Of a stretch of 64,000 bases of DNA, positions 29,019 to 32,764 are shown one piece after another; positions within the stretch are counted from its first letter, which is position 1; every line of letters starts with the position of its first letter. Both the position numbers and the translations under genes were made by a program. Where the stretch lies: the sequence record DRR378314_1864. One strand, written 5' to 3'. Below the pieces are notes generated by a model. That model did not search any database. It had not been told where the DNA came from and saw only the letters and a program-made list of their open reading frames with translations.

Positions 29019-29127
29019 AGTTTTTCACTACCTTTAAGGTAGACTAATTCCTTTTTTATTTCGTACAGATATGCGGTTCAATTGGCCTCTTTAATATTTT
29101 TCGAGTGCTATTATCTATCGAGCATTA

Positions 29128-29318
29128 TCAACATGGGAATCTGCTCCGACAAGAAGTGCCTTTCTGACTTAGGCCACTAGAACGTATTCTTGGACAAGTG
29201 TCTGCCACAGTGCGTTAGACCAGCATGCTCGACTCATAAATCACCTAGTTGGTTAAACATGGCGACAAATTAAGTCATCTGCAAACTCGTTCCTAGGTAT
29301 GGTTCCAGTTAAACTTAT
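29128..29318 (-). pseudogene. decayed IS66-like left end and frameshifted tnpA accessory gene fragment
   Basis: ATAAGTTTAACTGGAACCATACCT end-like motif, then SD and MSRACWSNALWQTLVQEY / frameshift / SSGLSQKGTSC, resembling the IS66 TnpA W..L.....SGLS...FC pattern. Confidence 0.4.
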
Positions 29319-29356
29319 TAAAGCGCAGGCGAATTTTTTAGTTAATTTACCTGAAA

Positions 29357-29394
29357 CTAATTCAACAACCCAGGCTTTCAGCTTGTTGAATTAG
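29357..29394. terminator. 12-bp perfect inverted repeat downstream of the deaminase gene
   Basis: CTAATTCAACAA-14nt-TTGTTGAATTAG, 20 nt past the stop; weak U-tract. Confidence 0.5.
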
Positions 29395-29414
29395 CTTATA
29401 AGTTTATAGAAATA

Positions 29415-31439
29415 TTATTCAATAAATGGTTCTACTTCTGAGGCGTGATAATACTCTCTTTCATTCTTAAATAATTTAAATACTACTTTTTTTGGATTAC
29501 AATCATCAAGATAAGCAATCGTTTTTTCATCTGTAATTCTATAATCAGATTTGTGTTTATCGTTGACCTTATCAATCCACCATTTACCGCCAGTTTTTCT
29601 CACAGTGCTAACGATCTCACCCTGTAGGATATCACCATTTTCATAGGTTTTACCTATCTCCACTGTGGGTCGTATTGAATTTGCAAGTAGGAAGTTGTTT
29701 TTCCCGGGACTCAGTTTGAAATAAACTCGTAAGCCTTCAAATAAGCTATTTTGATATGCCGGTTCGGCACAAGACGTTTTAAATCCATAATCGAAAGGAT
29801 AATCTTTTCTTAAAGAATCAATTTTATTGATCATATTAAAGCTTTCGTTTCCACGGTAAATCTTAATGTGAGATTTAAACTCAGCATCAAATACTTCCTC
29901 TTTTGAACTAGCAATGTCTTTTGCTGTTTTAATAGCTGTGTAGATATCCTCTTGTTCCTCATTGAAAGCATAGATCTCCAGAGGAATTTTAATGCGGGGA
30001 CTAGTGTATTTACCTTTCTGAGTGAAAATTGTTCGAGCTTCTGGGTCTTTTCTTTTAATCCGTGCGCTGGATCCTAGTCCCATAGTAGAAAATAAATCTA
30101 AATAGCGATTTGGTCCAACACCTGTAAATGATTGAAAAGTCACCTTGTCGGGAGTCTTTTCTTCAATGGAGATGGCGTCATCATGAAGTTCTGTTGCTTT
30201 ACTTTTAGGGTAAGGTTCTATGTAAATAACTTTGCTTACACCACTTGCGATAATATGCTTTGCACAGTTGTGACAAGGAAATGTCGTGCAGAATAAAGTT
30301 GTATTTTTTACATCAGCACCAATTCGTAAGGCACTCATTAAAGCTGACATTTCAGCGTGAACAACACGGCCGAATTCAGTAAGGTCTTTTAATCTTGTTT
30401 CCTCACGTAGTACTTGTGCTATTTCCTCTTCCTTTAAATTGGCATTCACTTCGGAAGTTTTTATTCGTAAATTTGAGATTAACGATTGGGCTATTTGTCT
30501 AGATAACTTATCAATTTCTATTGAGTTAGCATCGTAGCCTAGCGCTGCATCTCTTTTATCACCAGATGCTCCGGCATTTTCTTCTGTCAAAGGTAAATAG
30601 ATTTCATCCGGCCAGTATTTCCCGCCCCCACTTTTTTGGACGTCATTTGAACCTGTGGCGATGATGTCATCCTCTTTTGAGGTAATGACGGCACCAACTT
30701 GACGCGAAAGATCAGCGGAGTTGACAGATGACATAAAAGCCATAAACATCGAGTGTTCCTCTGCTGTAGGGCTTATATTTGGAGCTCCGAGTATTAAGTC
30801 GATAAACCGTTCGATAGTTGACTTTAAGTTTTCTTCGGTATTTACGAAAAAGTCAGATTGGACAAAAACTTTTGAAATTTCATTTTTCTCTAAACTTTCG
30901 GCGATCTTATTAGCAAACCCATTTTCCGGATTAATAGAGTATTTTAAAGAGTCGAGAACTCTATTTAAATTTTTTCTTCTACTTTCTGGTGAACTGGTTA
31001 ATCCAAATTGGAAAAAACCTTCTTTATATAAAGATTTTAAACAATTGGAATCTTTAGAGTCGTTCAAATTGGTTACAAGGTAAACAGTTCCTGACCTTTT
31101 GTTTTCCTTACAAAAATTTTTATTATTTTTTCTGCTGCTTTTAATTTTATCGATAGTGAGAGATGCGCTAATTGAATTGAAAGGATTTTCGTCATTCAGT
31201 TCTTGCTGATATTTTTTTTGTCTTTCAAGTAGACGGAAGGCGGTGCAACCGGTCTCTGGAACGTAATCTTCAGCTTCTTTAAGCTTATTCAGAACTAGGT
31301 TAGAGGTAGAGATAACTTGATAATGCCACTTATGCTCTTGAATAAGTGACTTTAGGTATTTAATCGTCTCTTCTTGACTAACCCCTATTGGAGACGTCAA
31401 TCCAAAAACGAGTTCATGATAATTGGTGGTGAATTTCAT
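29415..31439 (-). CDS. anti-phage dCTP/dCMP deaminase (AvcD-like) with C-terminal cold-shock-like repeats
   Basis: ELVFGLTSPIG kinase-like N-terminus; SADLSRQVGAVI, GRVVHAE (30351-30359), TTFPCHNCAKHI (30264-30278), YIEPYPKS, FTGVGPNRY. Confidence 0.88.
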   Translation of the reverse strand: MKFTTNYHELVFGLTSPIGVSQEETIKYLKSLIQEHKWHYQVISTSNLVLNKLKEAEDYVPETGCTAFRLLERQKKYQQELNDENPFNSISASLTIDKIKSSRKNNKNFCKENKRSGTVYLVTNLNDSKDSNCLKSLYKEGFFQFGLTSSPESRRKNLNRVLDSLKYSINPENGFANKIAESLEKNEISKVFVQSDFFVNTEENLKSTIERFIDLILGAPNISPTAEEHSMFMAFMSSVNSADLSRQVGAVITSKEDDIIATGSNDVQKSGGGKYWPDEIYLPLTEENAGASGDKRDAALGYDANSIEIDKLSRQIAQSLISNLRIKTSEVNANLKEEEIAQVLREETRLKDLTEFGRVVHAEMSALMSALRIGADVKNTTLFCTTFPCHNCAKHIIASGVSKVIYIEPYPKSKATELHDDAISIEEKTPDKVTFQSFTGVGPNRYLDLFSTMGLGSSARIKRKDPEARTIFTQKGKYTSPRIKIPLEIYAFNEEQEDIYTAIKTAKDIASSKEEVFDAEFKSHIKIYRGNESFNMINKIDSLRKDYPFDYGFKTSCAEPAYQNSLFEGLRVYFKLSPGKNNFLLANSIRPTVEIGKTYENGDILQGEIVSTVRKTGGKWWIDKVNDKHKSDYRITDEKTIAYLDDCNPKKVVFKLFKNEREYYHASEVEPFIE

Positions 31440-31469
31440 ATTTTTCCGTAAGTTAACTATTAAATACTA

Positions 31470-31499
31470 AAGTTAACAGACTCATTTATTGCAATACAA
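31470..31499 (-). promoter_or_regulatory. candidate extended -10 promoter of the deaminase
   Basis: Minus strand TTGTAT-18bp-(TGt)TAACTT, overlapped by a GTTAACT-12-AGTTAAC inverted repeat. Confidence 0.35.
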
Positions 31500-31618
31500 T
31501 ACTTTTAGTTATAAAAATGACTGTGAGTGATATGGGTACCTTCTAAAAAATTAGACCATTGCGATAAAAAATATTAGGTGTGTTCTGTAAGTACGAAGCA
31601 ACTCATTAGGCGTAAGCG

Positions 31619-31650
31619 AAAATGCCAGAAGCGCAAAAGCACTTCTGACA
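31619..31650 (-). terminator. intrinsic terminator of the CBS gene
   Basis: Minus strand TGTCAGAAGTGC-TTTT-GCGCTTCTGGCA-TTTT (two G-U pairs). Confidence 0.65.
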
Positions 31651-31661
31651 TATAATTGATT

Positions 31662-32249
31662 TCAGTCAATGACCTCATGATGATTTATCGCTGAAATAAT
31701 TTCCGCAAAAGTTGAGGGCAGGTGATAAACGTTTACTGACTCCCCTGTTAATTCAGCTATTCTAAGAGATGACACTACGCCACAGACTTCTCCATCGTTA
31801 ATCACGAGAAGAAAGTCGCGGCCACTGGCTTTGAGAGTTGCCGCTGCGTCACCGATTTTAGCTTTCTTTAAGTCCTCAAGTCTTACCTGTGGTAATGCCA
31901 CCAGAGGTAACATCAACTCTTTTACTGCCAATTCCCGCCAGCCAATTTGCTTGACGGTACTTAGCTGAGTTGCTTTGCGTCCGTGAAGCTCACGCAATGC
32001 CAGTAAACCTGTCATTTCATCACTTTGATTTTTTATGCAGGCGTAGCGGAGGTTGGCATTACGAAGCTTTTGCTCTGCGTCGCTGACCAGAGTGCTCTCC
32101 TTTATTTCTAGAGGAGATACTTTTGTGAAATCATCAACAACATGCGTAGCACTATCGTGCCAGCTAATTAACGGTTGATGCTCATAGTTGTGGTGTATTG
32201 CAATTTTATCGGCTGCAGAAGACCATTGAATTTCTTTAAACTCACTCAT
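31662..32249 (-). CDS. stand-alone CBS-pair domain protein (proteobacterial family)
   Basis: SATHVVDDF..P, LAVKELMLP, AKIGD..TL..SGR..LLV, GVVSS..I, TFAEI pattern; strong AAGGAG SD. Confidence 0.8.
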   Translation of the reverse strand: MSEFKEIQWSSAADKIAIHHNYEHQPLISWHDSATHVVDDFTKVSPLEIKESTLVSDAEQKLRNANLRYACIKNQSDEMTGLLALRELHGRKATQLSTVKQIGWRELAVKELMLPLVALPQVRLEDLKKAKIGDAAATLKASGRDFLLVINDGEVCGVVSSLRIAELTGESVNVYHLPSTFAEIISAINHHEVID

Positions 32250-32255
32250 GACAAA

Positions 32256-32294
32256 CTCCTTTAAAAATTAAAAAAAATACAGAATTTTTAAAGG
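32256..32294 (-). promoter_or_regulatory. SD-sequestering stem-loop
   Basis: Minus strand CCTTTAAAAATT (32294-32283, includes the uORF stop) pairs perfectly with AATTTTTAAAGG (32269-32258, includes AAGG of the SD). Confidence 0.75.
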
Positions 32295-32644
32295 TGAGCG
32301 GGTGGCCCCCGGACGAGATGCCAATTCCATTGGGTAAGCTTCGGTTCGCTTTTCTCCTGAGATAGAGGAGCAAGCGCTAAGACGTTTTGAAAAACTCGTG
32401 AGGATGCGTCGATTGCTTTATCGAATTCGGGATCTTCTGCCTGAATTTCAGATATAGGCGATGACAGGTCTACAATGAAAACAGCGTTGGAATTTTGCTG
32501 CGCCGTTAGCTGTTTTTCACTAATTTCGCCAGATGCGGCGTAGCTGGCTGTACTGAAAACGATGAGTAATAAACACAGCAATACCCGATAGCTCCACTGT
32601 TGGAGCCCGTTTAATTCGGTTGTAGTTGCTGAATATTTTTGCAT
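32288..32644 (-). CDS. secreted leader protein with C-terminal RGPP arrest-type motif
   Basis: Signal peptide (RVLLCLLLIVFSTASYA/A), polar linker, ends WNWHLVRGPPAHL*. Confidence 0.78.
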   Translation of the reverse strand: MQKYSATTTELNGLQQWSYRVLLCLLLIVFSTASYAASGEISEKQLTAQQNSNAVFIVDLSSPISEIQAEDPEFDKAIDASSRVFQNVLALAPLSQEKSEPKLTQWNWHLVRGPPAHL

Positions 32645-32764
32645 TTTTTGATCTTCGTAAATGTTCCAGTTCTCAAATTAGAGTATATAAGACGATTCGA
32701 CAACTCATTTTTTTACCTATTAAGTAGTACATGGGTACGTTTTGTTCAAAATACAAGCTAAGCA

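What the first reader, a model, noticed from the sequence alone, without database searches (positions are those of the whole stretch)
32250..32644. Candidate new ribosome-arrest switch: secreted RGPP leader plus SD-sequestering hairpin controlling a CBS gene
Seen: (i) a 118-aa ORF with a Sec-type signal peptide (RVLLCLLLIVFSTASYA/A) and a polar linker, ending WNWHLVRGPPAHL*, with RGPP at 32311-32300; (ii) a perfect 12-bp stem whose 5' arm (CCUUUAAAAAUU, 32294-32283) spans the leader stop codon and whose 3' arm (AAUUUUUAAAGG, 32269-32258) contains AAGG of the AAGGAG SD of the next gene; (iii) the stem starts 12 nt from the first base of the first Pro codon, about where a ribosome stalled there would open the SD-pairing base of the stem. 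Known: SecM (RAGP), ApdA/ApdP (RAPP) and RGPP-type peptides stall ribosomes, are released by translocon pulling on an N-terminal signal, and induce the downstream gene by melting such a hairpin. Inference: this is a force-sensing monitoring peptide wired to a CBS-domain gene rather than to sec/yidC, a pairing I do not know to be described. The leader has only one Cys and one His, so it does not look like the copper-sensing CruR/CutF type.
Basis: partly seen in the sequence, partly recalled or inferred. Interest (0 to 1): 0.9.

Follow-up and report, generated by a model that had tools for sequence, protein, structure and literature searches.

The report
Ribosome-stalling leader controls a CBS gene
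A small secreted peptide that probably jams its own ribosome at an Arg-Gly-Pro-Pro motif appears to switch on the neighbouring gene for a small CBS-domain protein; this is a known kind of switch wired to a target I could not find described, and it is conserved across many marine bacteria.

Summary
A perfect 12-bp stem joins its stop-codon region to the SD of the next gene, a 195-aa stand-alone CBS-pair protein.

Comparative evidence supports the arrest-switch reading.
- In 87 homologous CBS-gene loci of the same GTDB family, 73 have an upstream leader of 93-156 aa with a hydrophobic N-terminus and R[A/G/S]PP 1-8 residues before the stop. Only 4 of 1265 other ORFs in those loci have such an ending.
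- In the genus, 20 of 20 loci have a leader.
- The SD pairs with the 22 nt that start at the first Pro codon in 51 of 71 loci (mean paired fraction 0.74, against 0.18 and 0.31 in shuffles).
- An RGPP leader of Alteromonas, same order, is shown experimentally to act this way on secDF2 (PMC10987492).

RAPP/RGPP leaders upstream of non-Sec genes are already published (PMC12992588), so this is a new member of a known kind. Two things look new: the CBS-pair target, and a sharply placed acidic cluster 38-46 residues before the stall site. Arrest itself is untested, and the function of the CBS protein is unknown.

The parts
32288..32644 (-). Leader ORF, 118 aa: the candidate RGPP-type ribosome arrest peptide (monitoring-substrate type)
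   Evidence: ORF. Homologues occur only in Idiomarina-named or unnamed records: 13 clusters, all named 'hypothetical protein'. No Pfam family above cutoff. In the AF2 model only the N-terminal helix is confident; residues 49-104 have pLDDT below 50.
32537..32644 (-). Signal-peptide-like N-terminus (residues 1-36; h-region about 21-32; cleavage-like SYA|A)
   Evidence: The best 12-aa Kyte-Doolittle window scores 2.98 and starts at residue 21. LLCLLL is invariant in 13 of 13 orthologues. No signal-peptide predictor was available.
32408..32449 (-). Acidic cluster (E66, E70, D71, E73, D75, D79), 35-48 residues before the P-site Pro
   Evidence: In 73 leaders anchored at the stall site, columns -46 to -38 are 27-62% D/E. 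Columns -37 and -36 are 67-75% hydrophobic. Columns -35 to -3 are at most 12% D/E. The same cluster is seen in 5 secDF2 leaders.
32300..32329 (-). Arrest region W106-P115 (WNWHLVRGPP); RGPP = 32311-32300. Expected stall has Pro114 (32305-32303) in the P site and Pro115 (32302-32300) in the A site
   Evidence: W106, W108, H109, V111, R112, G113, P114 and P115 are invariant in 13 of 13 orthologues whose overall identity to the window leader is 46-72%. Codons vary synonymously: CGG/AGA/CGC and GGG/GGA/GGC. The stall position is taken from PMC12992588 section 7.
32243..32300 (-). Two-part stem-loop. Outer helix 32300-32295 / 32248-32243; inner helix 32294-32283 / 32269-32258; loop 32282-32270
   Evidence: The 77-nt context folds at -16.5 kcal/mol. 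This drops to -3.5 when bases through 32290 are held single-stranded, as in a stalled ribosome.
32247..32261 (-). SD AAGGAG (32261-32256) and start codon ATG (32249-32247) of the CBS-pair gene
   Evidence: In the near-identical locus L009, the calculated cost of opening SD..AUG is 9.1 kcal/mol free and 3.1 kcal/mol with the stall zone blocked.
31662..32249 (-). Regulated gene: stand-alone CBS-pair protein, 195 aa, function unknown
   Evidence: Pfam CBS at E = 4e-4, below cutoff, for this protein, but 87 of 89 family members hit CBS. AF2 pLDDT 91.4, a CBS pair plus a C-terminal helix. Foldseek and PDB profile searches give only generic CBS-pair matches. 469 representatives at E <= 1e-3, nearly all 185-205 aa.
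31622..31651 (-). Terminator-like hairpin plus T tail closing the two-gene operon
   Evidence: 13 pairs, 6 of them G-C. In the nearest genome, homology breaks at 31617, directly after this site.

Best explanation
The 118-aa ORF is a RAPP/RGPP-class ribosome arrest peptide of the 'monitoring substrate' type. It controls translation of the downstream CBS-pair gene.

Proposed mechanism, all steps inferred:
1. The leader and the CBS gene are one transcript.
2. In the free mRNA, the last leader codons plus the stop (32300-32283) pair with the SD and start codon of the CBS gene, keeping it poorly translated.
3. A ribosome translating the leader stalls with Pro114 in the P site and Pro115 in the A site. 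The stall depends on R112-G-P-P and the upstream WNWHLV segment in the exit tunnel.
4. The stalled ribosome covers or unwinds about 16 nt downstream. That is the whole outer helix and the SD-pairing base of the inner helix, so the SD and AUG (56 nt from the P site) are free for a second ribosome.
5. The N-terminal signal sequence engages the Sec translocon. Pulling on the chain releases the stall. The acidic cluster 38-46 residues from the peptidyl-transferase centre may be moved by the membrane potential and contribute to that pull. CBS expression would then rise when export, or membrane energisation, is poor.

Shown here: the sequence features, their conservation and the predicted pairing. 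Inferred: the arrest, the force-dependent release, the induction, and what the CBS protein then does.
For: (1) Motif conservation. WNWHLVRGPP is invariant in 13 of 13 orthologues that are 46-72% identical overall to the window leader, with synonymous changes in the Arg and Gly codons.

(2) Module conservation. The CBS gene is found in 82 of 151 genomes and 38 of 59 genera of the GTDB family.
- 73 of its 87 places have an upstream co-directional ORF ending R[AGS]PP plus 1-8 aa: RAPP 60, RGPP 11, RSPP 2.
- 5 more places qualify under relaxed rules.
- Background: 4 of 1265 other stop-closed ORFs in the same loci, and 3 of those 4 are more distant leaders.
- In the genus, 20 of 28 genomes have the gene and 20 of 20 loci have a leader: RGPP 8, RAPP 8, REPP 4.

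(3) Architecture. All 73 leaders have a hydrophobic N-terminus (12-aa KD >= 1.91). Length is 93-156 aa (median 100). The h-region ends 70-101 residues (median 78) before the P-site Pro.

(4) RNA.
- In 51 of 71 loci the MFE pairs at least 75% of the SD with the 22 nt that begin at the first Pro codon.
- The mean paired fraction is 0.74. It is 0.18 when everything upstream is dinucleotide-shuffled, and 0.31 when only the RxPP codons are kept.
- Arm sequences differ between leader types while the geometry is kept.
- The opening cost of SD..AUG falls from a mean of 8.2 to 4.0 kcal/mol when the stall zone is blocked (9.1 to 3.1 in the window-type locus). The fall is at least 3 kcal/mol in 44 of 71 loci.
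- The distance from P site to AUG is never below 52 nt.

(5) Precedent, from papers.
- An RGPP leader from Alteromonas naphthalenivorans (R125GPP, 131 aa) arrests in the E. coli PURE system and induces secDF2 by disrupting an SD-masking stem-loop. P127A lowers expression 5.6-fold and stem mutations restore it (PMC10987492, section 11, read). Alteromonas and Idiomarina are in the same NCBI order.
- RGPP gave the most stable, EF-P-refractory arrest, and the stall sits with the third and fourth codons in the P and A sites (PMC12992588; abstract, sections 7 passages, 13, 14, 15).
- Five secDF2 leaders of the same GTDB family share the acidic cluster at -51 to -39.

(6) Weak transcript hint. An RNA-library contig (run X3, 229 nt, no differences from the window) spans 32200-32428, across the leader-CBS junction.
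Against: - No measurement of arrest exists. [quoted passage not shown] They also show that arrest depends on the adjacent N-terminal segment and on the ribosome's species: six of seven S. lividans peptides gave mainly full-length product with E. coli ribosomes (PMC12992588 sections 14, 15).
- The window's 12-bp stem is A-U rich and weak: -7.3 kcal/mol. The region folds no better than shuffles, z = -0.89.
- RNAalifold on a MAFFT alignment of 20 genus loci predicted 0 pairs. The arms lie in different registers, so there is no alignment-based covariation statistic.
- The plain probability that SD bases are unpaired rises only from 0.14 to 0.37 on blocking the stall zone. In the window-type locus it does not rise (0.20 to 0.21), because weak A/U alternatives form. 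Only the energy-based measure shows the effect. The native free opening cost exceeds the shuffled mean in 53 of 71 loci, a modest margin of 8.2 against 6.4 kcal/mol. No matched control for blocking 46 nt was run.
- 9 to 14 of 87 family loci, and all 9 loci of another family (f6), carry the CBS gene without a leader.
- No known link ties a cytoplasmic CBS-pair protein to export, and its gene neighbours are not conserved.
- Related genomes are not independent, so the counts overstate the number of independent events.
Confidence: 0.78

Rival explanations
1. Plain translational coupling. Any ribosome finishing the leader transiently opens the hairpin (the stop codon lies inside the 5' arm), so the CBS gene is simply co-translated with the leader. 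RxPP causes at most a brief pause with no regulatory release.
For: The stop codon is inside the 5' arm in the window and in the genus loci. In the Alteromonas system the arrest-defective P127A mutant still gave more expression than a premature stop. The authors attribute this to transient opening by translating ribosomes (PMC10987492 section 11).
Against: Coupling needs no particular peptide. Yet R-x-P-P, a motif strongly excluded from bacterial proteomes (PMC12992588), sits at the same place in 73 of 87 loci. A further 8-10 residues upstream are invariant within the genus type. The signal-like N-terminus and its fixed distance to the motif have no role in coupling.
Confidence: 0.1
2. The arrest is real, but release is triggered by a periplasmic ligand or folding event, as proposed for copper and CruR, rather than by Sec activity or membrane potential.
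For: RAPP leaders with ligand-type sensing are proposed for CruR and for S. lividans peptides with Cys/His clusters (PMC12992588 sections 13-15). CBS domains occur in Mg2+ transport proteins such as CorC and MgtE, which are among the PDB hits. An acidic cluster could in principle bind divalent cations.
Against: The mature part has no confidently folded domain: pLDDT is below 50 for residues 49-104. Across genera it is not conserved apart from the acidic cluster. There is one Cys, inside the signal sequence. At the moment of stalling the acidic cluster is only 38-46 residues from the PTC. That is about where a chain reaches SecYEG (40-50 residues; PMC7886326 passages), not yet in the periplasm.
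Confidence: 0.07
3. The ORF encodes an ordinary small secreted protein, or a RiPP precursor of the darobactin kind (core W-N-W). In this reading the conserved C-terminus serves that product and the hairpin is incidental.
For: Weak NCBIfam hit to darobactin_RiPP over residues 91-108: E = 0.031, 14.4 bits against a cutoff of 45.
Against: The hit is far below cutoff. WNW occurs only in one Idiomarina leader type, while R-x-P-P is the shared feature. The neighbours are rnr, the CBS gene and a dCTP deaminase, with no maturation enzyme or exporter. A Sec signal peptide is not, as I recall, a feature of darobactin precursors. Nothing in this reading explains pairing of the SD to the stall zone in 51 of 71 loci.
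Confidence: 0.02

Closest known systems
uDF_RQH_Enterobacterales, the RGPP leader upstream of secDF2 in Alteromonas naphthalenivorans (Fujiwara et al. 2024, PMC10987492; section 11 read)
   Same: - RGPP a few residues before the stop (R125 in a 131-aa peptide there; R112 in 118 aa here).
- An N-terminal localisation signal.
- An SD-masking stem-loop next to the stall site.
- The same NCBI order.
- Five secDF2 leaders of the same GTDB family share the acidic cluster about 40-50 residues before the stall site.
   Different: The regulated gene here is a cytoplasmic stand-alone CBS-pair protein, not SecDF. The nearest genome has a single secDF. There is no significant sequence similarity outside the motif: phmmer of the 5 secDF2 leaders against the 73 CBS leaders gave a single hit at E = 5e-4. 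I did not see the published peptide's sequence.
SecM-secA of E. coli (as summarised in PMC10987492 Introduction)
   Same: A secreted leader, a C-terminal arrest sequence ending R-A-G-P, an SD-sequestering stem-loop opened by the stalled ribosome, and release by the active Sec machinery.
   Different: The core is RGPP, not RAGP. There is no F-x4-WI-x4-GIRAGP pattern. The downstream gene is not secA. The leader is 118 aa, against 170 aa for SecM (recalled).
RAPP/RGPP small secretory or membrane proteins upstream of diverse genes, including seven S. lividans arrest peptides and B. pertussis CruR (Fujiwara et al. 2025, PMC12992588; abstract, sections 13-15 and passages read)
   Same: R[A/G]PP near the C-terminus of a small protein with a localisation signal, a co-directional downstream gene outside the Sec/YidC pathways, and proposed arrest-based control.
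   Different: [quoted passage not shown] 'CBS' and 'Idiomarina' occur 0 times in the main text. Figures, appendix and source data were not visible and may list this class. No Cys/His metal site is present here.
VemP-secDF2 of Vibrio (recalled; cited in PMC10987492 and PMC6028853)
   Same: A marine gammaproteobacterial monitoring substrate whose arrest release depends on ion-motive-force-driven translocation.
   Different: VemP's arrest sequence is not RAPP-like (recalled), and its target is SecDF2. Not tested here.

Membership tests
RAPP/RGPP-class arrest peptides (RQH family / RAPP-like, Chiba laboratory definition) | R-A/G-P-P core close to the C-terminus of a small ORF | tested here: met
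   RGPP at residues 112-115 of 118. The same position in 73 of 87 family loci and 20 of 20 genus loci.
RAPP/RGPP-class arrest peptides (RQH family / RAPP-like, Chiba laboratory definition) | N-terminal signal sequence or transmembrane segment | tested here: met
   Hydrophobicity only: the 12-aa KD window is 2.98 here, and at least 1.91 in all 73 leaders. No SignalP or TMHMM was available.
RAPP/RGPP-class arrest peptides (RQH family / RAPP-like, Chiba laboratory definition) | Conserved arrest-supporting segment just N-terminal of the core | tested here: met
   W106, W108, H109 and V111 are invariant in 13 of 13 orthologues. Across genera this segment varies, as the papers describe.
RAPP/RGPP-class arrest peptides (RQH family / RAPP-like, Chiba laboratory definition) | Ribosome actually stalls with Pro in the P site and Pro-tRNA in the A site, dependent on Arg | not testable with these tools
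   Needs in vitro translation and toeprinting, or ribosome profiling.
Sec/YidC monitoring substrates (SecM, VemP, MifM, ApdA/ApdP, uDF_RQH) | Downstream gene encodes a component of the protein localisation machinery | tested here: not met
   The downstream gene is a CBS-pair protein, followed by a terminator-like site.
Sec/YidC monitoring substrates (SecM, VemP, MifM, ApdA/ApdP, uDF_RQH) | SD of the downstream gene sequestered by a structure that a ribosome stalled at the arrest site would disrupt | tested here: met
   In silico only. RNAalifold gave no consensus.
SecM family | Arrest sequence F-x4-WI-x4-GIRAGP, upstream of secA | tested here: not met
   The sequence is WNWHLVRGPP and the downstream gene is not secA.
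CruR/metal-sensing RAPP leaders | Conserved Cys/His residues able to form a metal site in the exported part | tested here: not met
   One Cys (C24, in the signal sequence) and two His (H109, H117, in the arrest tail). The exported part has pLDDT below 50.
Darobactin-family RiPP precursors (NF038004) | Score above the NCBIfam cutoff, and an adjacent radical-SAM maturase | tested here: not met
   14.4 bits against a cutoff of 45. Neighbours are rnr, the CBS gene and a dCTP deaminase.
CBS-pair (Bateman module) proteins (downstream gene) | Two tandem CBS motifs folding as one module | tested here: met
   87 of 89 family members hit PF00571. AF2 pLDDT 91.4. Foldseek top hits are CBS pairs, E = 5e-9, TM-target 0.73.

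The most novel reading that the evidence does not exclude
The module is a gauge of membrane energisation rather than of the Sec machinery as such. The acidic cluster fixed 38-46 residues before the stall site would sit at the mouth of SecYEG when the ribosome stalls, and the membrane potential would pull it through. A fall in potential, or in sodium or proton motive force in these marine bacteria, would prolong the stall and induce a cytoplasmic CBS-pair protein. That protein is probably adenine-nucleotide-binding and would act as the effector. Together this would link the energy state of the membrane to a nucleotide-sensing regulator through a nascent chain. It would also name a source of pulling force for non-Sec RAPP leaders, a question the 2025 paper leaves open.
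Probability: 0.2. Interest if true: 0.8.

Novelty: new member of a known kind. Interest (0 to 1): 0.55.

Why it matters
RAPP/RGPP arrest peptides have just been proposed to regulate many genes beyond protein export. Few such cases have a defined, conserved partner.

Here one partner recurs with the leader, a roughly 195-aa stand-alone CBS-pair protein of unknown function. The pairing holds in dozens of genera, and it keeps a pairing geometry between SD and stall site that can be tested directly.

This gives three things:
- A clean system to ask what a secretion-type monitor is for when its target is cytoplasmic.
- A first functional handle on an uncharacterised CBS-pair family.
- A specific candidate for the force-receiving element, namely the acidic cluster at a fixed distance from the stall site, which is shared with secDF2 leaders.

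Tried and rejected
- **RiPP (darobactin) idea:** raised by a weak NCBIfam hit. Rejected; see the rival explanations.
- **RNAalifold:** run on a MAFFT alignment of 20 genus loci, it gave 0 pairs. The stop codon and SD align, but the arms pair in registers that differ by one column and in length. I therefore used per-locus folds with shuffle controls instead, and ran no count of structure pairs.
- **SD-unpaired probability:** this was a poor measure of stalling, because weak A/U alternative pairings mask the effect. I replaced it with opening energies.
- **First version of the shuffle test:** it timed out. I re-ran it with MFE only and 50 shuffles.
- **The search for related loci with alignment A1:** failed because no stretch was conserved enough, so there is no named-organism survey. 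Distribution rests on unnamed GTDB handles.
- **Function of the CBS protein:** the PDB profile search, Foldseek, NCBIfam, PADLOC, ESM Atlas and source names gave only 'CBS domain-containing' or 'hypothetical'. The best PDB sequence hits include archaeal CBS ribosome-hibernation factors (9e6q, 9zni; PMC13454478 passages). The similarity is generic to CBS pairs, so I draw no function from it.
- **Gene neighbours of the module:** not conserved across genera.
- **RNA evidence:** only Logan contigs were available. Parts of the stretch without cover mean nothing, and contigs in RNA libraries may be DNA.
- **Ismail et al. 2015 (PMC4338579):** not held. Its result is cited second-hand from a review (PMC6028853).
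Full report
**What is in the window**

On the minus strand, ORF 32644..32288 encodes 118 aa. After a polar start it has a hydrophobic stretch, LLCLLLIVFSTASYA|A. A polar middle follows, and the ORF ends WNWHLVRGPPAHL*.

RGPP is CGG GGG CCA CCC at 32311-32300 and the stop is UAA at 32290-32288. A perfect 12-nt inverted repeat joins 32294-32283 (CCUUUAAAAAUU) to 32269-32258 (AAUUUUUAAAGG), with 13 nt between the arms. It is one of 11 such repeats in the 64 kb. The 3' arm contains AAGG of the SD AAGGAG (32261-32256) of the next gene, whose ATG is at 32249.

The MFE fold adds an outer 6-bp helix between 32300-32295 and 32248-32243, which also buries the U and G of that start codon. The inner stem alone is weak, -7.3 kcal/mol. 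The 101-nt region does not fold better than shuffles (z = -0.89; 34 of 200 shuffles do as well).

**Context**

The next gene, 32249..31662, encodes 195 aa and is followed at once by a terminator-like hairpin at 31651..31622. The pair sits in a housekeeping region: valS, holC, pepA, lptF, lptG and an RDD-family gene on one side, and divergent rnr, rlmB and rpsF...rplI on the other.

Between the terminator and the RDD-family gene the window carries about 2.6 kb (29027-31617) that the nearest held genome lacks. This stretch encodes an anti-phage dCTP deaminase (NCBIfam E = 1e-113; PADLOC dCTPase E = 1e-126).

Names attached to close homologues place the organism in Idiomarina.

**The downstream protein**

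Alone it scores below the Pfam CBS cutoff (E = 4e-4). It nevertheless belongs to a coherent family.
- There are 469 representatives at E <= 1e-3, nearly all 185-205 aa.
- 87 of 89 aligned members hit PF00571.
- The AF2 model is confident (pLDDT 91.4, pTM 0.80). It shows a CBS pair (about residues 33-170) with a C-terminal helix and a disordered first 30 residues.
- Structure and sequence searches return only generic CBS pairs.
- Sources call it 'hypothetical' or 'CBS domain-containing'.

Its function is unknown. Gene neighbours of the module are not conserved across genera.

**The leader within the genus**

The leader's sequence family is confined to Idiomarina-named or unnamed records (13 clusters). 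In 13 orthologues that are 46-72% identical overall to the window leader, W106, W108, H109, V111, R112, G113, P114, P115 and L118 are invariant. The underlying codons differ synonymously, CGG/AGA/CGC for Arg and GGG/GGA/GGC for Gly. Selection therefore acts on the peptide, not the RNA, at the motif.

With a profile of the CBS protein, 20 of 28 genomes of the genus have the gene. All 20 loci have an upstream leader: 8 RGPP (the WNWHLVRGPP type), 8 RAPP and 4 REPP. Each has a hairpin whose 5' arm covers the last leader codons and the stop, and whose 3' arm contains the SD. The arm sequences differ between leader types, for example CUUUAAUUCC/GGAAUUAAGG, CUCCUUUAAAAAA/UUUUUUAAAGGAG and AUCUGCUAACGC/GUGUUAGUGGAGU.

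**The module across the family**

The CBS gene is found in 82 of 151 genomes (38 of 59 genera) of the same GTDB family. I examined all 87 matching places.
- 73 have an upstream co-directional ORF ending R[AGS]PP followed by 1-8 residues, most often 3. The split is RAPP 60, RGPP 11, RSPP 2.
- Five more have a leader that is farther away, cut by a contig end, or ends RASP. That leaves 9 to 14 loci without one.
- As background, 4 of 1265 other stop-closed ORFs of at least 50 codons in these loci end this way, and 3 of those 4 are the distant leaders.

The leaders are otherwise unalignable, but they share an architecture anchored on the stall site.
- Hydrophobic N-terminus in 73 of 73 (12-aa KD >= 1.91, median 2.52).
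- Length 93-156 aa (median 100).
- The h-region ends 70-101 residues (median 78) before the P-site Pro.
- A sharp acidic cluster at -46 to -38 (27-62% D/E per column, peak at -41).
- Two hydrophobic columns at -37 and -36.
- At most 12% acidic residues per column from -35 to -3.

In the wider order the gene occurs in 38 of 301 genomes. Nine loci of family f6 have no leader. Loci of f18 and f28 have RAPP, RASP-like or RGPP leaders.

**RNA geometry**

In 71 loci with a recognisable SD (2 of the 73 had none by my rule), the MFE pairs at least 75% of the SD bases with the 22 nt that start at the first Pro codon in 51 loci.

| Measure | Native | All upstream shuffled | RxPP codons kept, rest shuffled |
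|---|---|---|---|
| Mean fraction of SD paired to the stall zone | 0.74 | 0.18 | 0.31 |

This holds even where 140-190 nt separate the two genes. In many loci the Pro codons themselves (CCN CCN) are the anti-SD.

| Cost of opening SD..AUG, kcal/mol | Free mRNA | Bases through +16 from the P site held single-stranded |
|---|---|---|
| Mean of 71 loci | 8.2 | 4.0 |
| Window-type locus (L009) | 9.1 | 3.1 |

The fall is at least 3 kcal/mol in 44 of 71 loci. In the window the fold drops from -16.5 to -3.5 kcal/mol. The AUG is never closer than 52 nt to the P site, which leaves room for an initiating ribosome.

Results against this reading:
- RNAalifold found no consensus.
- The simple unpaired probability of the SD barely changes, and in the window type not at all.
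- The free opening cost is only modestly above shuffles, 8.2 against 6.4 kcal/mol, with native higher in 53 of 71 loci.

**Transcript hints**

Only assembled contigs of public runs were available.
- One contig from an RNA library (X3, 229 nt, no differences) covers 32200-32428, across the junction.
- RNA-library contigs of two studies end at 32652 and 32654, which is 8-10 nt upstream of the leader ATG.
- A 29-kb contig of a relative (X8, 90-95% alike) has 270 nt replaced at 32377-32647. This means the N-terminal three quarters of the leader are diverged while the last 30 codons and the CBS gene are kept.

These are weak hints only.

**Comparison with what is known**

Fujiwara et al. 2024 (PMC10987492; section 11 read, other passages) studied an RGPP leader from Alteromonas naphthalenivorans. 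It arrests in the E. coli PURE system and induces secDF2 by disrupting an SD-masking stem-loop. P127A lowers expression 5.6-fold and stem mutations restore it. Alteromonas and Idiomarina share the NCBI order Alteromonadales.

I fetched 20 second-copy secDF loci of the family. The 5 with a fused SecDF have RAPP, RGPP or QASP leaders with the same acidic cluster at -51 to -39. The nearest genome to the window has a single secDF.

Fujiwara et al. 2025 (PMC12992588; abstract, sections 13-15 and passages read) report that:
- RGPP gives the most robust, EF-P-refractory arrest;
- RAPP/RGPP are excluded from proteomes but enriched near the C-terminus of small secretory and membrane proteins;
- such ORFs precede genes of diverse function.

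The kind is therefore known. 'CBS' and 'Idiomarina' do not occur in the main text of either paper. Three further full-text searches found nothing linking an arrest peptide to a CBS gene. The figures, appendix and source data of the 2025 paper were not visible and may list this class.

**The acidic cluster**

A review states that the membrane potential pulls on acidic residues of a translocating nascent chain strongly enough to release SecM arrest (PMC6028853, passages citing Ismail et al. 2015). The original paper is not held. Another paper states that a chain reaches SecYEG when it is 40-50 residues from the peptidyl-transferase centre (PMC7886326, passages). The cluster at -46 to -38 fits that position.

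That it is the force-receiving element is my inference. It is the basis of the novel reading.

**Verdict**

Noticed in passing
window 29027-31617 (gene 29415..31439, minus strand): A stretch of about 2.6 kb carrying an anti-phage dCTP deaminase (NCBIfam E = 1e-113, just under cutoff; PADLOC dCTPase E = 1e-126). It is absent from the nearest held genome, where only 17 nt lie between the flanks. It starts right after the terminator of the CBS operon, so it is a strain-specific defence insertion.
   Followed up: partly
L136-L139 (four Idiomarina loci): Leaders of the CBS gene that end W[Y/H]RPREPP[F/Y][L/F]L, with Glu instead of Ala/Gly in the core, and an SD hairpin CUCCUUUAAAAAA/UUUUUUAAAGGAG. 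I did not see REPP named among arrest-permissive cores in the text I read.
   Followed up: no
L154-L160, L162-L169 (second-copy secD/secF loci of the family): The 15 loci with separate secD2 and secF2 have an ORF of 142-202 codons just upstream of secD2 that lacks an RxPP ending. The 5 loci with a fused SecDF have RAPP/RGPP/QASP leaders. The former may be a different, VemP-like leader type. Not examined.
   Followed up: no
window 32652-32654: RNA-library contigs from two different studies (X3, X5) both end 8-10 nt upstream of the leader's ATG. This may mark a transcript start with a very short 5' UTR. Contigs cannot prove it.
   Followed up: no
L108-L112, L115, L119, L121, L122 (family f6 of the order): The same CBS-pair gene occurs without any upstream leader. 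In five of the nine loci it lies downstream of the same two conserved ORFs, which look by eye like a siroheme-synthase-type and a YaeQ-type protein; I ran no family search on them. The leader is thus an add-on in some lineages.
   Followed up: partly
L098, L100, L101 (family f18): Related leaders end ...YRPPARASP...LPPPRASPHY and ...LPPPRAPPTDLTGF. This shows drift between RAPP and RASP cores in front of the same CBS gene.
   Followed up: no
window 32238-32249 and genus loci: The first roughly 14 codons of the CBS gene (ATGAGTGAGTTTAAAGAAATTCAATGG...) are nearly identical at the nucleotide level in species whose leaders are only 51-69% identical. This is partly explained by the outer helix that pairs 32248-32243 with the leader tail.
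   Followed up: partly
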